Part shown: positions 1,213-8,600 of the stretch, piece after piece | Position numbering within the stretch: the stretch's first letter is position 1 | How the letters are laid out: every line of letters starts with the position of its first letter | Virus genome (UHGV): UHGV-0173177 | Reading direction: 5' to 3' (one strand) | Origin: a virus | Length of the DNA stretch: 44,360 nucleotides | Made by a program: the position numbers and the translations under genes | The notes under the pieces: model-generated | The model's database searches: none | Seen by the model: the letters and a program-made list of their open reading frames with translations, nothing else | Told to the model about the DNA's origin: nothing

Positions 1213-1604
1213 GTTTCGCGCTTGATGTCTCTAAGTTCGTGGAAAAGGCGAAGAAGAACCCAGAGAAGGTGATGCGTCAGGTGTCTATCAAGCTGTTTTC
1301 CGCTATTATAAAGGCGAGTCCGGTAGATACAGGCCGCTTTCGTATGAACTGGATGGTATCTGGTGGTACTCCTGCTTCCGGGATTACGGACGCTACGGAT
1401 AAATCAGGAAACACAGCAACCGGAAACGCTACAAGTTTCGTACTGAAAGCCGCCGACTGGCGCGAGTTCACGCTGACAAACAACCTGCCGTATGCTCAAC
1501 GGCTGGAGTATGGCTGGTCGCAGCAAGCGCCCGCCGGGATGGTCAGGACTAACGTGTCTCGCTTCCAGCAACTCATTAATGAAGAAGCCAACAAGGTGAA
1601 ATAA
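1209..1604 (+). CDS. HK97 gp10-like neck/tail-completion protein
   Basis: 131 aa containing a DTGRFRMNW motif resembling the DTGxLR signature of the HK97 gp10 family; translationally coupled to neighbours. Confidence 0.55.
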   Translation: MSFALDVSKFVEKAKKNPEKVMRQVSIKLFSAIIKASPVDTGRFRMNWMVSGGTPASGITDATDKSGNTATGNATSFVLKAADWREFTLTNNLPYAQRLEYGWSQQAPAGMVRTNVSRFQQLINEEANKVK

Positions 1605-2017
1605 TGGGCTACTTTGAGGACTTAACCAAAGCGTTTGATGTGCCGTTGGTAGCCTTCGGGAACGCAAACGGCATCAAGGTTGCGCTTGAAAACATCGACG
1701 CGCCGACGTCAACCGATACGCCGTATCTGGCGAGTTACATGTTGCTGGCAGATACGGAACAGGCGGATTTGTTCTTCACCGAGCAACGCTCTGGTATCTA
1801 TCAGGTCGACATTAACTACGCATCGGTGAAAGGTAGCGCGCCAATCAATAAAATGGCAGACTTACTTAACACGGCGTTTAAAGCAGGTAAGTCATTTTCA
1901 CGTAACGACATCTGCGCCGAGGTTCAATCGGTTAGCCTGGGGCCGCTGATTGTAGAAAACGGATGGGCCAAAAGACCATTGTCAATTAACTTTATTACAT
2001 TCACCAAGAGGCTGTGA
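1604..2017 (+). CDS. putative tail terminator / tail-associated protein
   Basis: 137-aa ORF immediately upstream of the major tail gene; TAATG overlap with the upstream gene. Confidence 0.4.
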   Translation: MGYFEDLTKAFDVPLVAFGNANGIKVALENIDAPTSTDTPYLASYMLLADTEQADLFFTEQRSGIYQVDINYASVKGSAPINKMADLLNTAFKAGKSFSRNDICAEVQSVSLGPLIVENGWAKRPLSINFITFTKRL

Positions 2018-2019
2018 AT

Positions 2020-3186
2020 ATGGCTACAACTCCTTTTAAGGGCGCGACTACCGCGCAATTCTATGTGGCGGAAGTCACCCCGGGCGTAACACCGGCTAAC
2101 CCTGTCTGGTCGCCGTTGCGTAACACTGGCGGTGTTCCTGCTATCACCCGCGACACGCTGACCTCCAACGAACTGGACGGCAGCCGTGAAACTACATCCA
2201 TCCGCACCGGTAACAAACAGGTTAGCGGTGAATACGCGATCGAGCTTAGCTCGAAAAGCCAGGATGACTGGCTGGCTGGTGCTTTAGGCTCTACGTGGCA
2301 ATCCGGTGTTTCCCTGTCCAGTCTGTCGATTACCGTCGCACCCGCGGGCAAGACGTTCACACGCGCTACCGGCAGTTTTATCGCTGACGGAGTTGGGGTA
2401 GGCGACCTGATTGCATTTACCGATTTAACAGGCGATAACGCAAAACCATTTATTGTTACTGCAGTAACGGCTACGGTTGTTACTGGTGCGGGCATCCAAC
2501 ACACCCTGACCACCGAGACAAAAACTAGTAAGGCTAAAACCGGCGACACGCTGGAAACCGGTAACACGTGTAAGACGTTCTCTATCCTTACCTGGTACAA
2601 AGGCCAGTGCGGCGGTACTGACGCGTACACGTTAACCAAAGGCGTGGAAGTTTCTGGTTTTACCATCGAACAGGCTGTTAACGCGATGGTAACTGGCAGT
2701 TTCCCGTTCATCGGGCGCAGCCAGGAGATTCTCGCCACGCCGCCGACAGGTTCTGATTTCTCCTCTGTCACGTTTGGTGACGAGCCGTTCTCTTCGGTTG
2801 ACGTTTCTGTGTTCGATGGCTCAACACCGTTGCGCTGCGACAGCCTGACCATCACCAACGATAACAGCGCGTCCGCTCAGTTCGAACTCGGTAATACTAA
2901 CGTAGCGTTTATTGAGCGTAGCCGCGCGGCTAACACCTTCTCCATCTCCGGCAAGCTGTACGACATGGCTATGATTCAGAAGTTTATCAACGAACAACAG
3001 GTAGAGATTAACTCTATTCTGGCGGGGGTAAACGGGGCTATGTCTTTCAGTCTGAAACGTGCAGAACTCACGGCGGTTACGCCAGAGATTGGCGGGCCTG
3101 AGTCAATCACTCAGAGCATAGAAGGACAGTCCACAGGCAATCAATACCAGTCGTCTATTGTTATCCAGCGTATCACCTACGCATAA
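2020..3186 (+). CDS. major tail protein (tail tube)
   Basis: 388 aa; ATG 2020 with AAGAGG 8 nt upstream (track start 2014 is a GTG); last gene before a strong intrinsic terminator; position upstream of chaperones and tape measure. Confidence 0.55.
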   Translation: MATTPFKGATTAQFYVAEVTPGVTPANPVWSPLRNTGGVPAITRDTLTSNELDGSRETTSIRTGNKQVSGEYAIELSSKSQDDWLAGALGSTWQSGVSLSSLSITVAPAGKTFTRATGSFIADGVGVGDLIAFTDLTGDNAKPFIVTAVTATVVTGAGIQHTLTTETKTSKAKTGDTLETGNTCKTFSILTWYKGQCGGTDAYTLTKGVEVSGFTIEQAVNAMVTGSFPFIGRSQEILATPPTGSDFSSVTFGDEPFSSVDVSVFDGSTPLRCDSLTITNDNSASAQFELGNTNVAFIERSRAANTFSISGKLYDMAMIQKFINEQQVEINSILAGVNGAMSFSLKRAELTAVTPEIGGPESITQSIEGQSTGNQYQSSIVIQRITYA

Positions 3187-3190
3187 AACT

Positions 3191-3214
3191 AAGGCCCCTT
3201 TCGGGGCCTTTTTC
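3191..3214 (+). terminator. intrinsic terminator, probably bidirectional, between convergent genes
   Basis: AAGGCCCC-TTTC-GGGGCCTT stem-loop followed by a T-run; sits between the + strand tail-tube gene and the - strand ORF ending at 3219. Confidence 0.7.
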
Positions 3215-3218
3215 TCAC

Positions 3219-3395
3219 TCACTCACTTTTGAATGGCATTTCGTAGAAGTTAGTTAACTGCCCCCGGTCACTCCGTTCTGTCATTTCTTTCGAAGCCTCT
3301 TCCTTACTACCCACGGCGTAAATATCTACCCACTCGTCCCATTCTTTGTCGTATACGCGGATTACGTATATTGTTTTCATTACATTCTTACTCAT
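3219..3395 (-). CDS. small hypothetical protein (58 aa)
   Basis: Hand-translated - strand ORF MSKNVMKTIYVIRVYDKEWDEW...; below the 60-aa track cutoff; GGAG upstream; last gene of the - strand island. Confidence 0.3.
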   Translation of the reverse strand: MSKNVMKTIYVIRVYDKEWDEWVDIYAVGSKEEASKEMTERSDRGQLTNFYEMPFKSE

Positions 3396-3618
3396 CAATA
3401 TTACTCCTGTACTCCCGTAACTTCTCCAGACTTTCTATTGCTTCTGCTAAGTCGGTTCCTGTGTCTTTGTGTCCGCGAAGGCCCATACACAACAGCTTCT
3501 TCAATGCGTGCTGTAGCGCCGGGTCGCGTATATCGAAGGCGCGTAGCACATCATAAACGTCTACTGTCATAGTGCTGCCGTGAGTGTTTGTCATTGTGCG
3601 GTTGTATTTATTTGTCAC
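3388..3618 (-). CDS. hypothetical protein (76 aa)
   Basis: ORF in the - strand island; GTG start at 3618 with GAGAG upstream, or the internal ATG at 3594. Confidence 0.45.
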   Translation of the reverse strand: MTNKYNRTMTNTHGSTMTVDVYDVLRAFDIRDPALQHALKKLLCMGLRGHKDTGTDLAEAIESLEKLREYRSNIDE

Positions 3619-3625
3619 TGTTAAC

Positions 3626-3675
3626 TCTCTTAAATCTGGCTATGCCTGACTCTCTTAAATCTGGCTATGCCTGAC
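3626..3675. repeat. perfect 25-bp tandem direct duplication (2 copies) of TCTCTTAAATCTGGCTATGCCTGAC
   Basis: Read directly: 3626-3650 is identical to 3651-3675; overlaps the 3' end of the - strand ORF 3630-3833. Confidence 0.9.
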
Positions 3676-3833
3676 TCGTTAATGCTGCCTATTTCAAAGA
3701 AGCTGCGATATTTAGGCGAATACATTCTTACGTCGCCGTTCTCTAGGGTGACCCCTTCATATACAGCGCCTACTTCGAATCCATTTTTCTCCGCGTACGG
3801 ACTCACATCGGTGCATTCATACATATCTTTCAT
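3630..3833 (-). CDS. hypothetical protein (67 aa) whose C-terminus is altered by the 25-bp duplication
   Basis: ORF ends ...FKRVRHSQI*; with one repeat copy removed the frame would read ...FKRVNSDK*. Confidence 0.45.
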   Translation of the reverse strand: MKDMYECTDVSPYAEKNGFEVGAVYEGVTLENGDVRMYSPKYRSFFEIGSINESGIARFKRVRHSQI

Positions 3834-4960
3834 CCCAGCATCTCCGGTGAAATAGTTAAACGTGCGACCTCGCCATATTCGGCACTATAGGTAATTACAT
3901 TTGCGCTACGGCCTGACATCCATCCACCGCGCGAGGCGTAGGCGTCTTTAGCCGCCAGGGTGCGGTGTTGCTCAACAATCATGTTACGGCTTTCCACAAT
4001 CTTCTGATGGTGGAGGTGGCCTACGTGGGCGTAGCTGTAAACGCTTTCGCCAAATGCTTTGCGGAACTTGGCAATCATAACCGGTTCGATAGCGTCGAAT
4101 CGTGCCTTATGCCCGTGGTGAAAGAACAGCGTCGTTTTGCCGTGTTGCACCATCTTGTAAACATCTGGCGACGTATCGACGAACACACGAGGCTCATTGT
4201 CGTACAGCGTACTAAACATCTCAGCTAACCAAATCATTCCGCTTTCGTCGTGGTTTCCTTGCACGATAAGCAAGCGAACATTTTTATGCTTAACCAGCGC
4301 CATACCGACAACACGGCGGACCATACGAATCATGTAGCGGACAAGTTTCTGATAGCGAGTGTCCGCATCAAGGGCGTGACCGCTTGCAGGCGTAACGGCA
4401 ACCAGACTGTCGAAGTGCGCGAAGTCGCCCAGCAGGTTAATAACTCCAGTTCCTGCATCCGGCGCTTTCTGGAACGCCGCATCGAACCAGCGAGAAAACA
4501 GGTCTTCCGCAATCTTCATATCCCAGTCGTCGCCACTCTCGTCGGCCCAGGCCAGCATACCAAGATGGAAATCAGATACAGTGTAAAGATTGAGTAGTTT
4601 ATCGTCACGTTTGGTGCGAACGGCTTTAACTGGTACAACGGGAGTAATCTCCGACTTCATGCCTTCGATTACGGCTTTCATCAACTCGACCTGACGTTCA
4701 GCGTCAGTGTCTGTCTTAACCCATTGCAACTTAGTGTTGCCGAACTCGTCCACAAGCGACGACGTTCCTTTAATCTTGTAGCCGTCCGGGACAAGATGGC
4801 TAACGTCACGACCGTGACCTACGCCTTTCTTCGCCAGCTTCGCTTTACGGATACGAATAACGCGGTCTGAGATGCCGTATTTACGGGCGATGTCTACATT
4901 CTTCATCCCGGCGTTCAATTCTTCCTGTAACTGTTCGTCGGTTATTTTCTTCTGGGCCAT
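3830..4960 (-). CDS. metallophosphoesterase (calcineurin-like) with N-terminal helix-turn-helix domain
   Basis: 376 aa; N-terminus DIARKYGISDRVIRIRKAKL is HTH-like; ordered metallophosphatase motifs DFHLG, GDFAHFD, GNHD, HHGH, GHLHH. Confidence 0.6.
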   Translation of the reverse strand: MAQKKITDEQLQEELNAGMKNVDIARKYGISDRVIRIRKAKLAKKGVGHGRDVSHLVPDGYKIKGTSSLVDEFGNTKLQWVKTDTDAERQVELMKAVIEGMKSEITPVVPVKAVRTKRDDKLLNLYTVSDFHLGMLAWADESGDDWDMKIAEDLFSRWFDAAFQKAPDAGTGVINLLGDFAHFDSLVAVTPASGHALDADTRYQKLVRYMIRMVRRVVGMALVKHKNVRLLIVQGNHDESGMIWLAEMFSTLYDNEPRVFVDTSPDVYKMVQHGKTTLFFHHGHKARFDAIEPVMIAKFRKAFGESVYSYAHVGHLHHQKIVESRNMIVEQHRTLAAKDAYASRGGWMSGRSANVITYSAEYGEVARLTISPEMLG

Positions 4961-5025
4961 GCTTACTTCCTCGTGTTTAGGATTTGTCCTATTTAACCAC
5001 AGTGGATTCCTTTAAATAAAGGCAA

Positions 5026-5352
5026 CTATTTACTTTCTGCGCCTATTGCCCATCCAGTCATTACCATTTGCAGACGGGTGGCTGTCAGTAGGCTGTAAAA
5101 CGCGTCTCCGTTTTTCTCTACCGAACGTATTACCGTGTATGTTACGGCTTGCGGAGGCAGGCCCGATTTACCAACCTCTACGGCGGACTCGCACTCGCGA
5201 ACTGTAGAGTCCTTAAATGCCTTTACAAGAGTAGGGTTGGCTTTCTCAAGCACACCAGAAGTCATAAGAACAGATTCACTAAATACCTGTTCGCACGGGG
5301 ACCCAAAAGTAGCAAAAGACATAAACCCCAGAGCTAGTACTAATTTACGCAT
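5026..5352 (-). CDS. small secreted/periplasmic protein (signal peptide)
   Basis: 108 aa; N-terminus MRKLVLALGFMSFATFGSPCEQ has n-, h- and c-regions of a Sec signal; first gene downstream of the - strand promoter at 5381-5409. Confidence 0.5.
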   Translation of the reverse strand: MRKLVLALGFMSFATFGSPCEQVFSESVLMTSGVLEKANPTLVKAFKDSTVRECESAVEVGKSGLPPQAVTYTVIRSVEKNGDAFYSLLTATRLQMVMTGWAIGAESK

Positions 5353-5380
5353 AATTATTTCCTCGGTAAGTTACAAGTGA

Positions 5381-5409
5381 ATAGTACCCTATTATATTGG
5401 GGTGCGCAA
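5381..5409 (-). promoter_or_regulatory. sigma70-like promoter (class 2: TTGCGC-17-TACTAT) with AATAG-N4-CTATT palindrome over the -10
   Basis: - strand reads TTGCGC accccaatataataggg TACTAT tcacttg; near-identical architecture to the promoters at 28979 and 30513. Confidence 0.5.
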
Positions 5410-5516
5410 GTAGTGTGCTAGAATAAGTTTGCGCCTAGTGTCGCACACGAAAAGCGGGTGGTTCCCGTCTGGCGCGTCAACCTTAACCTGTAACCTCTTA
5501 ACCAAAGGATTAAAGA

Positions 5517-5933
5517 ATGAAACTTTCTGATTTTTATTTTGCCGACCGCCACGCTACTGGCACTAAAATGCCTATCCTTCTGCCGAGTGGTAAAGACTCC
5601 GGTGAATGGCTGCAGGTCATTGGCCCCGATTGTGATGCGGGTGTTCGTGCAGGCCGCGCCTACACAACGGCAATTCGACGCCTTACGGAAGAACTTGCGC
5701 CATTAGATAAAGAGTGTGAGGCGCTGAATAACTGGGCGCGCTATAACGATGAGAAGGGCTGGCGGGTGATGGACCTGAACAAGCAGCTCGCTGTCGAAAT
5801 CGTCACCGGTTGGTCATTCGACGAGCCGTTCAGCAAAGAGGCGCTGGCTAACCTGTTCGACCAGTACAGCGGACTGGCAGAAGCCGTGGTTAAACACCAC
5901 ACCGATAGCCGCGAGAAACTCTCGGAAAAGTAA
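5517..5933 (+). CDS. tail assembly chaperone (lambda gpG-like position)
   Basis: 138-aa ORF with AAAGGA RBS, immediately upstream of the tape measure gene; the downstream -1 frame is open from 5909. Confidence 0.5.
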   Translation: MKLSDFYFADRHATGTKMPILLPSGKDSGEWLQVIGPDCDAGVRAGRAYTTAIRRLTEELAPLDKECEALNNWARYNDEKGWRVMDLNKQLAVEIVTGWSFDEPFSKEALANLFDQYSGLAEAVVKHHTDSREKLSEK

Positions 5934-6022
5934 AAGCGCTGTATGAATTTGCGCAATGGTGCTTTGTCGACCGCCACAAACGTAAGCAATTCGACGACAT
6001 CGCGGCAGGCCACCAGGCGGCT

Positions 6023-6295
6023 TTGATTGCAATGGGCGTGATTAAAGAACCGCAGATGAAAGAAGCGACGGGGCCAGAATGCCCCGTTTCTCTTATCGAC
6101 GCGTTCGAGAAATACCGTGCCATTAAATTCCTACAGCGCGAAACAGATGATACTATCGTTATAATCCCGCGCGATGCGCTCAAATGGCAAGATTTGGTAG
6201 CGTTTCGTGATGTCGCCGGTTACGGCATAAGTTTGTTCGAGGCCGAGGTTATCATGGGCTTAGACGGAATATTTGAGGGCAGAGAAGATGGCTGA
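6023..6295 (+). CDS. tail assembly chaperone frameshift extension (gpT-like), probably expressed as a fusion with 5517-5933
   Basis: Frame is -1 relative to the upstream gene and open from 5909 (the frames overlap 5909-5930 around GGAAAAG); track start 6023 is a TTG with no good RBS; ends overlapping the tape measure start. Confidence 0.4.
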   Translation: MIAMGVIKEPQMKEATGPECPVSLIDAFEKYRAIKFLQRETDDTIVIIPRDALKWQDLVAFRDVAGYGISLFEAEVIMGLDGIFEGREDG

Positions 6296-8600
6296 TACGG
6301 CTTCCCTAATTGCCAGAGTAAAAACAGAAGGTGCTGACGTAGCTGCCAAACAGCTTGACGCTATGGCGTCGTCTGCAGACCGCGCGGATACCGCGGTAAA
6401 CAAGCTGACTCCGGACGTTAATAAAGTAAACTCCACCACGTCTAAAGCGGCCTCCGACGGTTTCGCTAAGTTCCGTAACGCCGCAGGGCAGGTTGGCTTC
6501 CAGGTGCAGGACATGGTGGTCCAGTTGCAATCCGGCACGTCTGCATTCGTCGCGATAGGGCAGCAAGGTTCGCAGCTTGCCGGTGCTTTCGGTCCAGGTG
6601 GCGCGGTGCTAGGTGCGGTAATAGCGCTAGCGTCGGCGGTTGGTGGCGTTCTTTACAAATCATTAACTGAGGCTGAGGGTAGCTCAAAAGACCTGGAAGC
6701 CGCACAGAAACAGTTAAAGGACACCTTCCAACAAACGGCATCTGGCTCTCTTGAATTGACAGATGGTCTTATCCAGCTTACCCAAATCAGCAGAGAAGCG
6801 GCGGAGACTCAGCTTGCTCTGGCTAAGGCTAACGCGGACCTTATTGCACAGCAAACAGCTAAAGCCGTTCGTGAGGACGCAGAGTCGTGGGAAACGTGGA
6901 AGGCCTCCACGACATCGGCGATCAGCCAGTATGATGCGCTGGTCTCTAAGGGCGCCGATGTAGGCGACACATTAGAAAAACTAGGCGGCACTTACGAGGG
7001 TAACATCGTAGGCGTCAACATGCTGGCGCAGAATATCGCGGAGCTTAGCAGTAAGTTCGGGGTTAACCGTGACCAGGCGCTGGAGATGATAGCGGCGCAG
7101 AGTGCGTTTAACAAAGAACCAACCGCCGAGAATGCCCGTCGTATCGCCGATGTGTTTACCGACTGGCTAGGTAATACAAAACAGTTGAACCCGGAACTTA
7201 TCCGCCTGACCGACAACGCCAACAAGAACGCCACGGCACTGGAGAACGCGGAGAAGTCAGCAAACGCGGCGGCAGAGGCCCAAAAGAATCTCGGTCGTAA
7301 CGTCAACTCGACCACGCAGAGGTTCCAGGAACAGAACGAAGCTATCGTCAAAAACCAGCAAATTGCCATCTTAAGTGACCGTGAGCGCGTCCGGGCGCAA
7401 GCTGAACTGGATAAGCAGGCGTTTGCTAAACGTGAAGCTGTCACCAAAGAACAGATAGCCGCGTATAACGCTGCCCGTGACGCGGAAGCACAGCAAGACA
7501 TCGCTCGCATCGACGCGACCGAAAAAGCGAAGGCAGACCGCGAGGCTAAATCGAACGAGAAACGTCTGGCGGCACAAGCCAAACGCGAAGAAACTGCAGC
7601 GCAACGCCAGAAGAAAGCCGCGGAAGATTTCCTCGCTACGGTCGACCGAACAACGGGGGATGAAATTTCTCGTATCACAGCGGCAGAAGAGCAGAAACTG
7701 GCGAAACTTGAAGAGTTCAACCGCGCCGGAACAATAAGTCAGCAGCAGTACGAAAACGCCAAAACGCAGATTATGCTCACCGCCGAGCAGGCCCGACAGG
7801 AAGAACTGGATAAGAAAAGAAAAGAAGCCCAGGAAAAGCAGCAGAAAGGTGACGACTTCATGGCTCAGATTATGGGCCAGAACGCCGCTGAGCTTGAGCT
7901 TCTCGACATCCAGGAACAGCAGAAACTGGCGGTCGCAGATAAGTACCGTGAGCAAGGGCTTATTAGTGAGAAGCAGTATCAGGCCGCGCTTAACGCCATC
8001 AACGAGCAATACGCAACCAAGCGTGCCGACGCAACGGCAACCGCCTTCGGTAACATGGCCTCAAACATCGGGTCTGCGTTGGGTGAGGCTTCTGGCGCGT
8101 ACAAGGCATTCGCTATCGTACAGGCCACCATAGCCACGTACACCGCAGCTATCGAGGCGTACAAGTCCACGGCGGCTATCCCCGTAGTCGGCCCGTTCCT
8201 GGCCCCTGTAGCCGCTGCCGCTGCCGTTGGGGCGGGTATGGCGCAGATTTCCGCTATCAGGTCCGCGCGTGAGCAGGGCGGTCAGTTGTCCGCAGGGCAG
8301 GCTTCCACCATCGCAGAACGTGGTAAACCAGAAGTTATCATGCCCGCTGGCGCATCGCGTGTTCGCACCGCACAGCAGATGAAGGAAATTATGGGCCAAA
8401 ACGGGTCTTCTTCCGGCCCATCTAATGTTACCATCGTAAATAACACATCGAGTCAGATTGGCAACGTATCCACTGAGCAAGATGATGAAGGCCGTTTGCG
8501 TATCATCATCGAAGAGCAAGTGGCGGCCTCTTTGCAGAACAGCAACAGTAAGATTAGCAAGGCTCGCAAGGCCACAAGAAACGCGCCGGGGTTCAAGTAA
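6288..8600 (+). CDS. tail tape measure protein
   Basis: About 770 aa, Ala/Gln/Glu/Lys-rich and helical, hydrophobic Gly/Ala-rich segment near the C-terminus; follows the chaperone pair; ATG 6288 overlaps the upstream stop. Confidence 0.8.
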   Translation: MADTASLIARVKTEGADVAAKQLDAMASSADRADTAVNKLTPDVNKVNSTTSKAASDGFAKFRNAAGQVGFQVQDMVVQLQSGTSAFVAIGQQGSQLAGAFGPGGAVLGAVIALASAVGGVLYKSLTEAEGSSKDLEAAQKQLKDTFQQTASGSLELTDGLIQLTQISREAAETQLALAKANADLIAQQTAKAVREDAESWETWKASTTSAISQYDALVSKGADVGDTLEKLGGTYEGNIVGVNMLAQNIAELSSKFGVNRDQALEMIAAQSAFNKEPTAENARRIADVFTDWLGNTKQLNPELIRLTDNANKNATALENAEKSANAAAEAQKNLGRNVNSTTQRFQEQNEAIVKNQQIAILSDRERVRAQAELDKQAFAKREAVTKEQIAAYNAARDAEAQQDIARIDATEKAKADREAKSNEKRLAAQAKREETAAQRQKKAAEDFLATVDRTTGDEISRITAAEEQKLAKLEEFNRAGTISQQQYENAKTQIMLTAEQARQEELDKKRKEAQEKQQKGDDFMAQIMGQNAAELELLDIQEQQKLAVADKYREQGLISEKQYQAALNAINEQYATKRADATATAFGNMASNIGSALGEASGAYKAFAIVQATIATYTAAIEAYKSTAAIPVVGPFLAPVAAAAAVGAGMAQISAIRSAREQGGQLSAGQASTIAERGKPEVIMPAGASRVRTAQQMKEIMGQNGSSSGPSNVTIVNNTSSQIGNVSTEQDDEGRLRIIIEEQVAASLQNSNSKISKARKATRNAPGFK

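What the first reader, a model, noticed from the sequence alone, without database searches (positions are those of the whole stretch)
5909..5933. Candidate programmed -1 ribosomal frameshift joining the two tail-chaperone ORFs
The frame of 6023-6295 is exactly -1 relative to 5517-5933 and stays open back to 5909, overlapping the last seven codons of the upstream gene. The overlap contains GGAAAAG, in which an A-site Lys tRNA could re-pair after a -1 slip, and the downstream ORF has only a TTG start with no RBS. This matches the conserved G/G-T chaperone arrangement upstream of tape measure genes in long-tailed phages.
Basis: partly seen in the sequence, partly recalled or inferred. Interest (0 to 1): 0.45.

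Follow-up and report, generated by a model that had tools for sequence, protein, structure and literature searches.

The report
Tail-chaperone G/GT ribosomal frameshift site
This is the usual "G/GT" trick of long-tailed phages, where a few ribosomes slip back one base at the end of a tail-assembly chaperone gene to make a longer fusion protein. The same fusion is already annotated in near-identical phages, so it is real but ordinary.

Summary
ORF 5517-5933 encodes a 138-aa tail assembly chaperone (Pfam Phage_TAC_4). The -1 frame is open from 5909 to 6295 (Pfam Phage_TAC_18) and ends inside the start of the tape measure gene (ATG 6288).

The window is a Kagunavirus (Guernseyvirinae) E. coli phage, about 96% identical here to NTEC3, fFiEco02 and Bas70/71.

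Comparison with about 85 related loci (22 non-redundant) shows that the 34 codons after the G stop are conserved protein-coding sequence in the -1 frame. About half of the lineages have no start codon there. Only a frameshift from G can express this segment.

The conserved signal is not the heptamer GGAAAAG. It is the tetramer A_AAG followed directly by the stop (A AAG UAR), plus an invariant GCGYUG five bases further on. The three bases before A_AAG vary freely.

The predicted product is ...LSEK|VKALYEF..., 259 aa and 29.3 kDa. The equivalent fusion built for phage fFiEco02 (three substitutions from the window's) is an exact match to GenBank QNO11587.1, so the frameshift is already annotated, though inconsistently across relatives. 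I found no experimental proof for this phage group.

Interest is low. The only mildly new points are the non-canonical stop-adjacent motif and the unexplained 3' block.

The parts
5505..5509 (+). Shine-Dalgarno-like AAGGA, 7 nt before the G start codon
   Evidence: Read from the sequence. Duplex energy with the anti-SD is -5.4 kcal/mol, similar to other real starts in relatives.
5517..5933 (+). Gene G: tail assembly chaperone, 138 aa (15.6 kDa), stop TAA at 5931-5933
   Evidence: Pfam PF08748 Phage_TAC_4, E=1e-8, 35.9 bits against a cut-off of 21.1. Matches positions 1-138 of the 259-position profile phrog_15027, E=2.5e-65. The exact protein is in public databases as UVM80858.1.
5909..5933 (+). 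Overlap in which the -1 frame is already open (after TAG 5906-5908) while frame 0 is still G
   Evidence: The overlap length varies from 10 to 208 nt in relatives, so only its 3' end matters.
5924..5930 (+). Only its last four bases are conserved.
   Evidence: In relatives the first three bases are GGA, GTC, CGC, GGT, AAA, AGC, GGC or GGG.
5927..5930 (+). Inferred shift site: tetramer A_AAG, where tRNA-Lys re-pairs from AAG to AAA
   Evidence: AAG is used in 22 of 22 non-redundant relatives. The preceding codon always ends in A although it encodes six different amino acids. In L042 and L043 a TAA closes the -1 frame immediately 5' of C_GCA_AAG, which confines the shift to these 7 nt.
5931..5933 (+). 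G stop codon TAA immediately 3' of the shift codon. This is a conserved 'A AAG UAR' arrangement.
   Evidence: UAA or UAG directly follows AAG in 21 of 22 non-redundant relatives, and it is never UGA. In L030 the stop is one codon later.
5936..5941 (+). Invariant GCGCTG block (Ala-Leu codons of the -1 frame) 5 nt 3' of the shift codon. Its role is unknown; it may be a stimulator.
   Evidence: GCG is used in 22 of 22 and YTG in 22 of 22 relatives, whereas almost every other conserved residue shows synonymous variation. No conserved partner helix was found.
5930..6295 (+). T extension read in the -1 frame: 121 codons (V139...G259) plus stop TGA 6293-6295. Fusion GT = 259 aa, 29.3 kDa.
   Evidence: Pfam PF23812 Phage_TAC_18, E=5e-17. 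Matches positions 137-259 of phrog_15027, E=8.6e-62. Codon-position variability is 0.31/0.25/0.57 with 0 stops in the first 34 codons. The same construction for fFiEco02 equals QNO11587.1.
6023..6034 (+). First canonical start codons in the -1 frame (TTG 6023, ATG 6032). These are the rival independent start for an 87-90 aa T-only protein.
   Evidence: Public annotations often call an 87-aa product from the ATG. SD strength upstream of the conserved ATG ranges from -0.1 to -12.3 kcal/mol in relatives, so it is not conserved.
6288..8600 (+). Tape measure protein gene. Its ATG overlaps the T stop (ATGGCTGA, invariant in relatives).
   Evidence: phrog_1538 tail length tape measure protein, E=2e-198. 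The alignment shows ATGGCTGAT invariant.

Best explanation
Genes G (5517-5933) and T (-1 frame, to 6295) are the tail assembly chaperone pair of a Kagunavirus siphophage.

Most ribosomes terminate at TAA 5931 and make the 138-aa G protein. A minority slip back one base at the last sense codon. The single E. coli tRNA-Lys (anticodon mnm5s2UUU), paired with AAG 5928-5930, re-pairs with AAA 5927-5929. The next codon read is then GUA 5930-5932.

This gives a 259-aa G-T fusion, ...LSEK-VKALYEF..., which terminates inside the start of the tape measure gene.

By analogy with lambda gpG/gpGT, the G part would bind the tape measure protein and the T part would recruit the tail tube protein. The low fixed ratio would be set by the frameshift frequency.

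Shown here:
- the frame arrangement;
- the homology to chaperone families;
- coding conservation of the start-less segment;
- invariance of A_AAG, the adjacent stop and GCGYUG;
- the existing public annotation.

Inferred:
- that slippage occurs, and at what frequency;
- whether tRNA-Lys slips in the A site during translocation, or in the P site while the slowly decoded stop codon occupies the A site;
- the protein functions.
For: (1) Family and position. PF08748 and PF23812 both score above their curated cut-offs. phrog_15027, a 259-position fused chaperone profile, matches G at positions 1-138 and the -1 stretch at 137-259. The tape measure gene follows directly.

(2) Conservation of the two-frame layout. 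489 of 513 phage records match the full fusion, down to about 50% identity; in all 57 listed records with 49% identity or more the match falls in two pieces, as expected for two frames.

(3) The segment 5934-6022 has no canonical start codon in the window but evolves as coding sequence in the -1 frame. Pairwise differences at codon positions 1/2/3 are 0.28/0.21/0.54 in 11 genomes and 0.31/0.25/0.57 in 22. There are no stops, against 51 and 55 in the other frames. Mean amino-acid identity is 60%, higher than the 44% of the G C-terminus.

(4) In 12 of 22 lineages the first ATG/GTG/TTG in the -1 frame is 28-34 codons past the junction.

(5) Synonymous sites are frozen only at the junction: AAG 22/22, GTA 21/22, GCG 22/22, YTG 22/22. 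The codon before AAG always ends in A across six amino acids.

(6) Natural variants at the same position include the canonical G_GGA_AAG (L060) and A_AAA_AAG (L032, L036). In L042 and L043 a -1-frame TAA confines the shift to C_GCA_AAG.

(7) A_AAG is the most shift-prone tetramer in E. coli (Sharma et al. 2014, PMC4066793). It is used at CGA_AAG in B. subtilis cdd and in IS1222 (Atkins et al. 2016, PMC5009743).

(8) The same junction is deposited for fFiEco02, fPoEco01 and fFiEco03.
Against: - I found no experimental detection of a G-T fusion in any Guernseyvirinae phage.
- G_GAA_AAG is not a canonical X_XXY_YYZ heptamer. One genome announcement for a phage with the identical site states there is 'no canonical slippery sequence'.
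- In reporter assays, tetramers without a stimulator were barely above background: 0.147% against 0.112%.
- I found no conserved downstream hairpin (RNAalifold -0.21 kcal/mol; window fold z = 0.52).
- I found no conserved upstream SD-like element (mean -2.25 against a background of -2.58 kcal/mol).
- There was no Rfam match.
- The review notes that a slow A-site codon matters more for +1 than for -1 shifts, so the role of the stop codon is uncertain.
Confidence: 0.85

Rival explanations
1. There is no frameshift. T is made as a separate small protein by its own initiation, either at ATG 6032 or TTG 6023 (87-90 aa), or at the CTG/TTG Leu codon six bases after the G stop (5939, 118-119 aa). Many GenBank records annotate it this way.
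For: Public annotations-aa (ATG) and 119-aa (TTG/CTG) products on hundreds of contigs. Some lineages have an SD-like GAGG upstream of the conserved ATG, at -5.6 to -12.3 kcal/mol. Jersey-like phages have TTG at the +9 Leu codon, with AGGA 12 nt upstream, which the Shashou record annotates as an RBS.
Against: The 34 codons upstream of the ATG are conserved as coding sequence. Twelve of 22 lineages have no canonical start codon within the first 27 codons after the junction, and in most of them none before the conserved Met at codon 34. The +9 Leu codon is CTG in 19 of 22. SD strength at either candidate is not conserved: -0.1 to -12.3 kcal/mol at the ATG and -0.4 to -5.7 at the YTG. Independent initiation does not explain the frozen A_AAG or the requirement that the preceding codon end in A.
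Confidence: 0.07
2. The frameshift occurs, by classical tandem slippage of two tRNAs on G_GAA_AAG. tRNA-Glu moves from GAA to GGA and tRNA-Lys from AAG to AAA. The adjacent stop and the GCGYUG block play no part. The product is the same and only the mechanism differs.
For: G_GAA_AAG is the commonest form of the site, found in the window and most Kagunavirus and Jerseyvirus loci. After the slip, tRNA-Glu could keep two Watson-Crick pairs plus a central G-U (my own reasoning). Heptamers generally out-perform tetramers.
Against: The P-site codon is GAA, TCA, GCA, GTA, AAA or GGA in different lineages. For TCA, GCA and GTA the -1 codon (GTC, CGC/AGC/GGC, GGT) cannot be re-paired by the P-site tRNA. 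Tandem slippage therefore cannot be the conserved mechanism. It also leaves the synonymous freezing of GTA, GCG and YTG unexplained.
Confidence: 0.25
3. The fusion arises from RNA polymerase slippage on the A run rather than from the ribosome.
For: An A run is present at the junction (AAAA, 5926-5929).
Against: Four A residues, and three in lineages with GCAAAG, are far shorter than the homopolymer runs known to give transcriptional slippage (established knowledge; reviewed in PMC5009743). The conserved feature is A_AAG in a fixed reading frame followed by a stop, which is a translational signature.
Confidence: 0.02

Closest known systems
Phage lambda gpG/gpGT programmed -1 frameshift (Levin et al. 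1993; Xu, Hendrix & Duda 2004, 2013, 2014, as summarised in PMC5009743)
   Same: Two overlapping ORFs lie directly upstream of the tape measure gene. The second is in the -1 frame without its own start. The shift occurs near the 3' end of G on an ...A_AAG Lys codon. A G-T fusion is predicted as a minor product.
   Different: Lambda uses the canonical heptamer G_GGA_AAG. Here the conserved unit is only A_AAG, and the window has G_GAA_AAG. The shift codon is the very last sense codon, abutting the stop. The proteins belong to other Pfam chaperone families (Phage_TAC_4 and Phage_TAC_18). A minus-strand gene module separates the tail tube gene from G.
Annotated 'putative tail assembly chaperone frameshift product' of Escherichia phages vB_EcoS_fFiEco02 (QNO11587.1 / YP_010749005.1), fPoEco01 (QNO11812.1) and fFiEco03 (QNO11663.1)
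   Same: The locus is the same: fFiEco02 is 95.5% identical in nucleotide sequence over 5300-6500. The junction ...EK|V... is the same, and the lengths are 259-260 aa.
   Different: The window's fusion differs from the fFiEco02 protein by three substitutions and is not itself in the protein collection. Those records are predictions without experimental support.
A_AAG tetranucleotide -1 frameshift sites: IS3, IS1222 (G_CGA_AAG) and Bacillus subtilis cdd (A_CGA_AAG)
   Same: The shift depends on a single tRNA-Lys re-pairing from AAG to AAA, with a P-site codon that cannot re-pair. A_AAG is the most efficient tetramer in E. coli.
   Different: Those sites rely on identified stimulators: a pseudoknot or hairpin 3', and an SD-like sequence 5'. 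No conserved counterpart was found here. Instead the stop codon directly follows, and a linear GCGYUG block is conserved.
E. coli dnaX A_AAA_AAG frameshift
   Same: It uses the same slippery Lys codon and the same host tRNA. Two metagenomic relatives (L032, L036) carry A_AAA_AAG at this very position.
   Different: dnaX has a full heptamer, an upstream SD-like element and a strong downstream hairpin, and shifts at about 50%. After the dnaX shift the new frame stops almost at once, so the product is shorter rather than longer.

Membership tests
G/GT-type tail assembly chaperone frameshift of long-tailed phages (Xu et al. 2004) | Two ORFs located between the major tail (tube) gene and the tape measure gene, the second ending at the tape measure start | tested here: met
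   The tail tube gene is at 2014-3186 (PF18906), G at 5517-5933, T runs to 6295, and the tape measure gene starts at 6288. One variation: a minus-strand module at 3219-5352 lies between the tube gene and G. The annotated relative Shashou has the same layout.
G/GT-type tail assembly chaperone frameshift of long-tailed phages (Xu et al. 2004) | Second ORF in the -1 frame, overlapping the end of the first, with its conserved coding sequence beginning before any start codon | tested here: met
   There are 0 stops and a coding-type substitution pattern in the 34 codons after the junction. The first canonical start is 28-34 codons downstream in 12 of 22 lineages.
G/GT-type tail assembly chaperone frameshift of long-tailed phages (Xu et al. 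2004) | Slippery sequence in the overlap (canonical X_XXY_YYZ heptamer) | tested here: not met
   G_GAA_AAG is not X_XXY_YYZ. Only the Z_ZZN tetramer A_AAG is present and conserved. Rare relatives do carry G_GGA_AAG or A_AAA_AAG at this position.
G/GT-type tail assembly chaperone frameshift of long-tailed phages (Xu et al. 2004) | Sequence membership of G and T in recognised tail assembly chaperone families | tested here: met
   PF08748 scores 35.9 bits against a cut-off of 21.1. PF23812 scores 62.2 bits against a cut-off of 27. phrog_15027 and phrog_313 also match.
G/GT-type tail assembly chaperone frameshift of long-tailed phages (Xu et al. 2004) | Both G and a minor G-T fusion are produced (about 30:1 in lambda) and both are needed for tail assembly | not testable with these tools
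   This needs protein detection and genetics. I found no published data for Guernseyvirinae.
G/GT-type tail assembly chaperone frameshift of long-tailed phages (Xu et al. 2004) | The G domain binds the tape measure protein and the T domain binds the tail tube protein | not testable with these tools
There is no solved relative by sequence; the best PDB E-value was 0.18.
Tetranucleotide Z_ZZN (A_AAG) -1 frameshift sites (IS3 / IS1222 / cdd type) | A_AAG in the zero frame, allowing cognate re-pairing of tRNA-Lys in the -1 frame | tested here: met
   Positions 5927-5930. Invariant in 22 of 22 non-redundant relatives.
Tetranucleotide Z_ZZN (A_AAG) -1 frameshift sites (IS3 / IS1222 / cdd type) | Flanking stimulator: a downstream hairpin or pseudoknot starting 5-8 nt 3', and/or an SD-like element 10-14 nt 5' | tested here: inconclusive
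   There is no conserved local structure and no SD enrichment. However, an invariant GCGYUG block starts after a 5-nt spacer. A candidate long-range partner about 80 nt downstream pairs in 84% of cells, but only 6 of 22 sequences form all six pairs, and there is no covariation.

The most novel reading that the evidence does not exclude
The signal in this phage group may be a distinct, compact 'shifty-stop' -1 frameshift cassette, A_AAG-UAR-NN-GCGYUG. In this reading tRNA-Lys slips in the P site while release factor is slow to act on the adjacent stop. The invariant GCGYUG would act as a linear or long-range 3' stimulator, not a nearby hairpin. The G:GT ratio would then be set by competition between termination and slippage.
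Probability: 0.25. Interest if true: 0.35.

Novelty: already known. Interest (0 to 1): 0.15.

Why it matters
For genome annotation, the T reading frame of this phage should be recorded as a joined G-T coding sequence with the junction K138|V139. It should not be recorded as an 87-, 90- or 118-aa 'hypothetical protein'. Public records for this subfamily are split three ways, and one paper states that no slippery sequence exists.

For recoding biology, the comparative data give a clean natural example in which only a tetramer and the adjacent stop are conserved across about 50% protein divergence. A further invariant 6-nt block has no known role and would be cheap to test in an E. coli reporter. 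None of this changes the general picture of tail assembly.

Tried and rejected
- **Downstream stimulatory hairpin.** RNAalifold on 19 diverged sequences gave -0.21 kcal/mol and no covariation. The window's own hairpin at 5933-5965 folds no better than shuffled sequence (z = 0.52).
- **Long-range helix.** GCGYUG against the Ala-Ala-Leu codons about 80 nt downstream is the best of about 180 registers, with 84% of cells paired. Only 6 of 22 sequences form it completely, and the 3' arm varies at synonymous sites. This is left open, not adopted.
- **Upstream SD-like stimulator.** Not enriched.
- **Rfam.** Only one chance-level hit, to ar35 at E = 0.63.
- **Large protein search with the fusion.** It returned only 28 G-type proteins of 142-181 aa and no fused or T-only forms. 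It was useful only in showing that more distant G homologues also end in ...AK or ...VK.
- **PDB sequence search.** Nothing significant.
- **Literature searches** for Kagunavirus, Jerseyvirus or Guernseyvirinae plus frameshift. They gave only two genome announcements, which disagree with each other, and no experiments.
- **Transcriptional slippage and sequencing error.** Rejected on run length and on conservation across hundreds of genomes.
- **Minus-strand ORFs** 5741-6013, 5814-6032 and 5890-6183. Treated as spurious, because the substitution pattern is fully explained by the plus-strand frames.

Full report
**1. The observation**

Reading 5400-6420 and listing ORFs confirms every statement in the finding.

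- ORF 5517-5933 ends ...CTC TCG GAA AAG TAA.
- ORF 6023-6295 starts with TTG and is in the -1 frame.
- That frame is closed by TAG at 5906-5908 and open from 5909.
- GGAAAAG is at 5924-5930 and reads G_GAA_AAG in frame 0.
- There is also an in-frame ATG at 6032.
- The T stop (TGA 6293-6295) sits inside the start of the next gene (ATG 6288, ATGGCTGA).

The heptamer alone is not remarkable: it occurs 8 times in the window against 5.6 expected.

**2. What the genes are**

- The upstream ORF matches Pfam Phage_TAC_4, at 35.9 bits against a cut-off of 21.1.
- The -1 stretch matches Phage_TAC_18, at 62.2 bits against a cut-off of 27.
- The next gene matches the tape measure family phrog_1538, E=2e-198.
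- The genes at 1604-3186 are a tail terminator and a tail tube protein.

The profile phrog_15027 is 259 positions long. It matches G at positions 1-138 and the -1 stretch at 137-259. Fused proteins of exactly this kind are therefore already in a public family.

The DNA is 94-96% identical to many Kagunavirus (Guernseyvirinae) E. coli phages, including NTEC3, fFiEco02 and Bas70/71.

**3. Existing annotation**

Two phage records, fFiEco02 and fPoEco01, carry a joined CDS described as a 'putative tail assembly chaperone frameshift product'.

I built the fusion by reading G through AAG and continuing in the -1 frame at GTA. For fFiEco02 and fPoEco01 the result is an exact match to QNO11587.1/YP_010749005.1 (259 aa) and QNO11812.1 (260 aa). 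The junction K|V is therefore the one already deposited.

Other records annotate T differently:
- as 87 aa from the ATG;
- as about 118-119 aa from a CTG or TTG six bases after the G stop;
- or simply as 'hypothetical protein'.

The literature is split. The Shashou genome announcement says there is 'no canonical slippery sequence', yet Shashou has the identical CAG GAA AAG TAG. The Shelanagig announcement says the slippery sequence is present. I found no experimental demonstration for this subfamily.

**4. Comparative test of the frameshift**

A tblastn search with the 259-aa fusion finds 513 phage records. In 489 of them the match covers at least 80% of the query, down to about 50% identity; in all 57 listed records with 49% identity or more the match falls in two pieces, as expected for two frames.

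I fetched 11 annotated loci and 79 IMG/VR loci. I reduced them to 22 representatives that are at most 92% identical over 200 nt around the junction.

The 34 codons after the G stop behave as coding sequence in the -1 frame:
- pairwise differences at codon positions 1/2/3 are 0.31/0.25/0.57;
- there are no stops in any representative, against 51 and 55 in the other two frames;
- mean amino-acid identity is 60%, higher than the 44% of the last 19 codons of G.

In 12 of 22 representatives the first ATG/GTG/TTG in that frame is 28-34 codons past the junction. Anti-SD complementarity upstream of the conserved Met or the +9 Leu codon is not conserved. A conserved protein segment without a start, continuous with the end of G in the -1 frame, is what a frameshift predicts and what independent initiation does not.

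**5. Where the shift happens**

Across all loci the three bases before A_AAG vary: GGA, GTC, CGC, GGT, AAA, AGC, GGC or GGG. In contrast, A_AAG is invariant. The codon before it always ends in A, although it encodes Glu, Ser, Ala, Val, Lys or Gly.

In L042 and L043 a TAA in the -1 frame lies immediately 5' of C_GCA_AAG. The shift must therefore occur on those two codons.

One relative has lambda's G_GGA_AAG (L060), and two have the dnaX-type A_AAA_AAG (L032, L036), all at the same position.

The stop (UAA or UAG, never UGA) directly follows AAG in 21 of 22 representatives. In L030 it is one codon later.

A codon-level alignment shows where synonymous sites are frozen. Among about 65 conserved residues with degenerate codons, only four show no third-position variation, or almost none:
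- K138, AAG in 22 of 22;
- V139, GTA in 21 of 22;
- A141, GCG in 22 of 22;
- L142, YTG in 22 of 22.

The conserved RNA string is thus A AAG UAR NN GCG YUG, at window 5927-5941. It occurs once in the window against 0.01 expected.

**6. Mechanism**

The best-supported reading is single-tRNA slippage of tRNA-Lys from AAG to AAA. A_AAG is the most shift-prone tetramer in E. coli, at up to 5.6% with a pseudoknot stimulator (Sharma et al. 2014, PMC4066793). It is used with non-re-pairing P-site codons in B. subtilis cdd and in IS1222 (PMC5009743).

Tetramers alone are weak in reporters, at 0.147% against 0.112%, so a stimulator is expected. I looked for one and found none that is conserved:
- no conserved local hairpin;
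- no conserved upstream SD-like element;
- no Rfam match.

The invariant adjacent stop and the GCGYUG block are the only candidates. The stop could act as a slow A-site codon that favours P-site slippage. The review notes that this matters more for +1 than for -1 shifts, but it also gives a -1 case in which a nearby stop is required.

GCGYUG could pair with the Ala-Ala-Leu codons about 80 nt downstream. That register is the best of about 180 tested, with 84% of cells paired. However, only 6 of 22 sequences form all six pairs and there is no covariation. These two sub-claims remain inferences.

The functional model is taken from lambda: G binds the tape measure protein, T recruits the tube protein, and the ratio is fixed (PMC5009743). 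It was not tested here.

**7. More distant relatives**

Two distant Phage_TAC_4-type loci also have a -1 T frame but use other motifs:
- Serratia phage Tlacuache has CGA_AAG three codons before the stop.
- Vibrio phage pVco-14 has T_TTT_TTC.

This is the usual diversity of G/GT sites.

**8. Verdict**

It is a standard G/GT chaperone frameshift that is already annotated for near-identical phages. Novelty is 'already known' and interest is low.

The useful by-products are:
- a precise junction for annotation;
- the demonstration that the conserved signal is A_AAG plus the stop, rather than a heptamer;
- an unexplained invariant 3' block.

Noticed in passing
window 6067-6088: There is a GC hairpin inside the T reading frame, GACGGGGCCAGAATGCCCCGTT, encoding the G-P-E-C-P motif. 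Its core GGGC-N6-GCCC is essentially invariant in 18 diverged relatives (one deviates at one pair); RNAalifold gives -6.3 kcal/mol. Synonymous choices are nearly fixed: GGG 20/21, TGC 20/21, CCC 16/22. In most relatives TTTTT follows 3-5 nt later, like a weak intrinsic terminator or attenuator between G and the tape measure gene. In the window the T run is degenerate.
   Followed up: partly
window 5936-5941: GCGCTG (Ala-Leu in the -1 frame) is invariant at synonymous sites in 22 non-redundant relatives, and no convincing pairing partner was found. It may be a 3' frameshift stimulator of unknown type.
   Followed up: partly
window 3187-5516: The tail tube gene (2014-3186) and the chaperone genes are separated by a minus-strand module at 3219-5352. 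It includes a 376-aa metallophosphoesterase / 'DNA repair exonuclease' at 3830-4960 (phrog_704). A terminator-like hairpin lies at 3191-3210, which the annotated relative Shashou marks as a bidirectional terminator. G therefore starts its own transcription unit. The same layout is annotated in phage Shashou.
   Followed up: partly
window 6288-6295: The T stop and the tape measure start overlap as ATGGCTGA. ATGGCTGAT is invariant in all 12 aligned genomes. Only the rare frameshifted ribosomes terminate here, so the tape measure gene must mostly be initiated de novo from its own GAGGG at 6274-6278.
   Followed up: no
L010 (Salmonella phage SS3e, AY730274.2) 401-1177: This older record has indels in the G gene. 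It is missing the ATG, has an extra A near codon 13 and another insertion near codon 95. G is therefore broken into small ORFs, and tblastn matched the fusion in one piece. These are probably sequencing errors in the deposited record.
   Followed up: no
P0001-P0028; L046/L047 position 601: Metagenomic G homologues (51-65% identical) are called with N-terminal extensions of about 15-40 residues, giving lengths of 142-181 aa. L046 and L047 have CTT where the usual ATG lies. Some lineages therefore appear to have a longer G. Of the ten whose sequences were read, nine end in ...AK or ...VK before the stop and one (P0008) ends ...AKL.
   Followed up: no
public records of the same locus: Annotation of the T frame is inconsistent across Guernseyvirinae. 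It appears as a joined frameshift CDS, as 87 aa from the ATG, as 118-119 aa from a CTG/TTG (in Shashou with an 'RBS' placed on the slippery heptamer itself), or as 'hypothetical protein'.
   Followed up: yes
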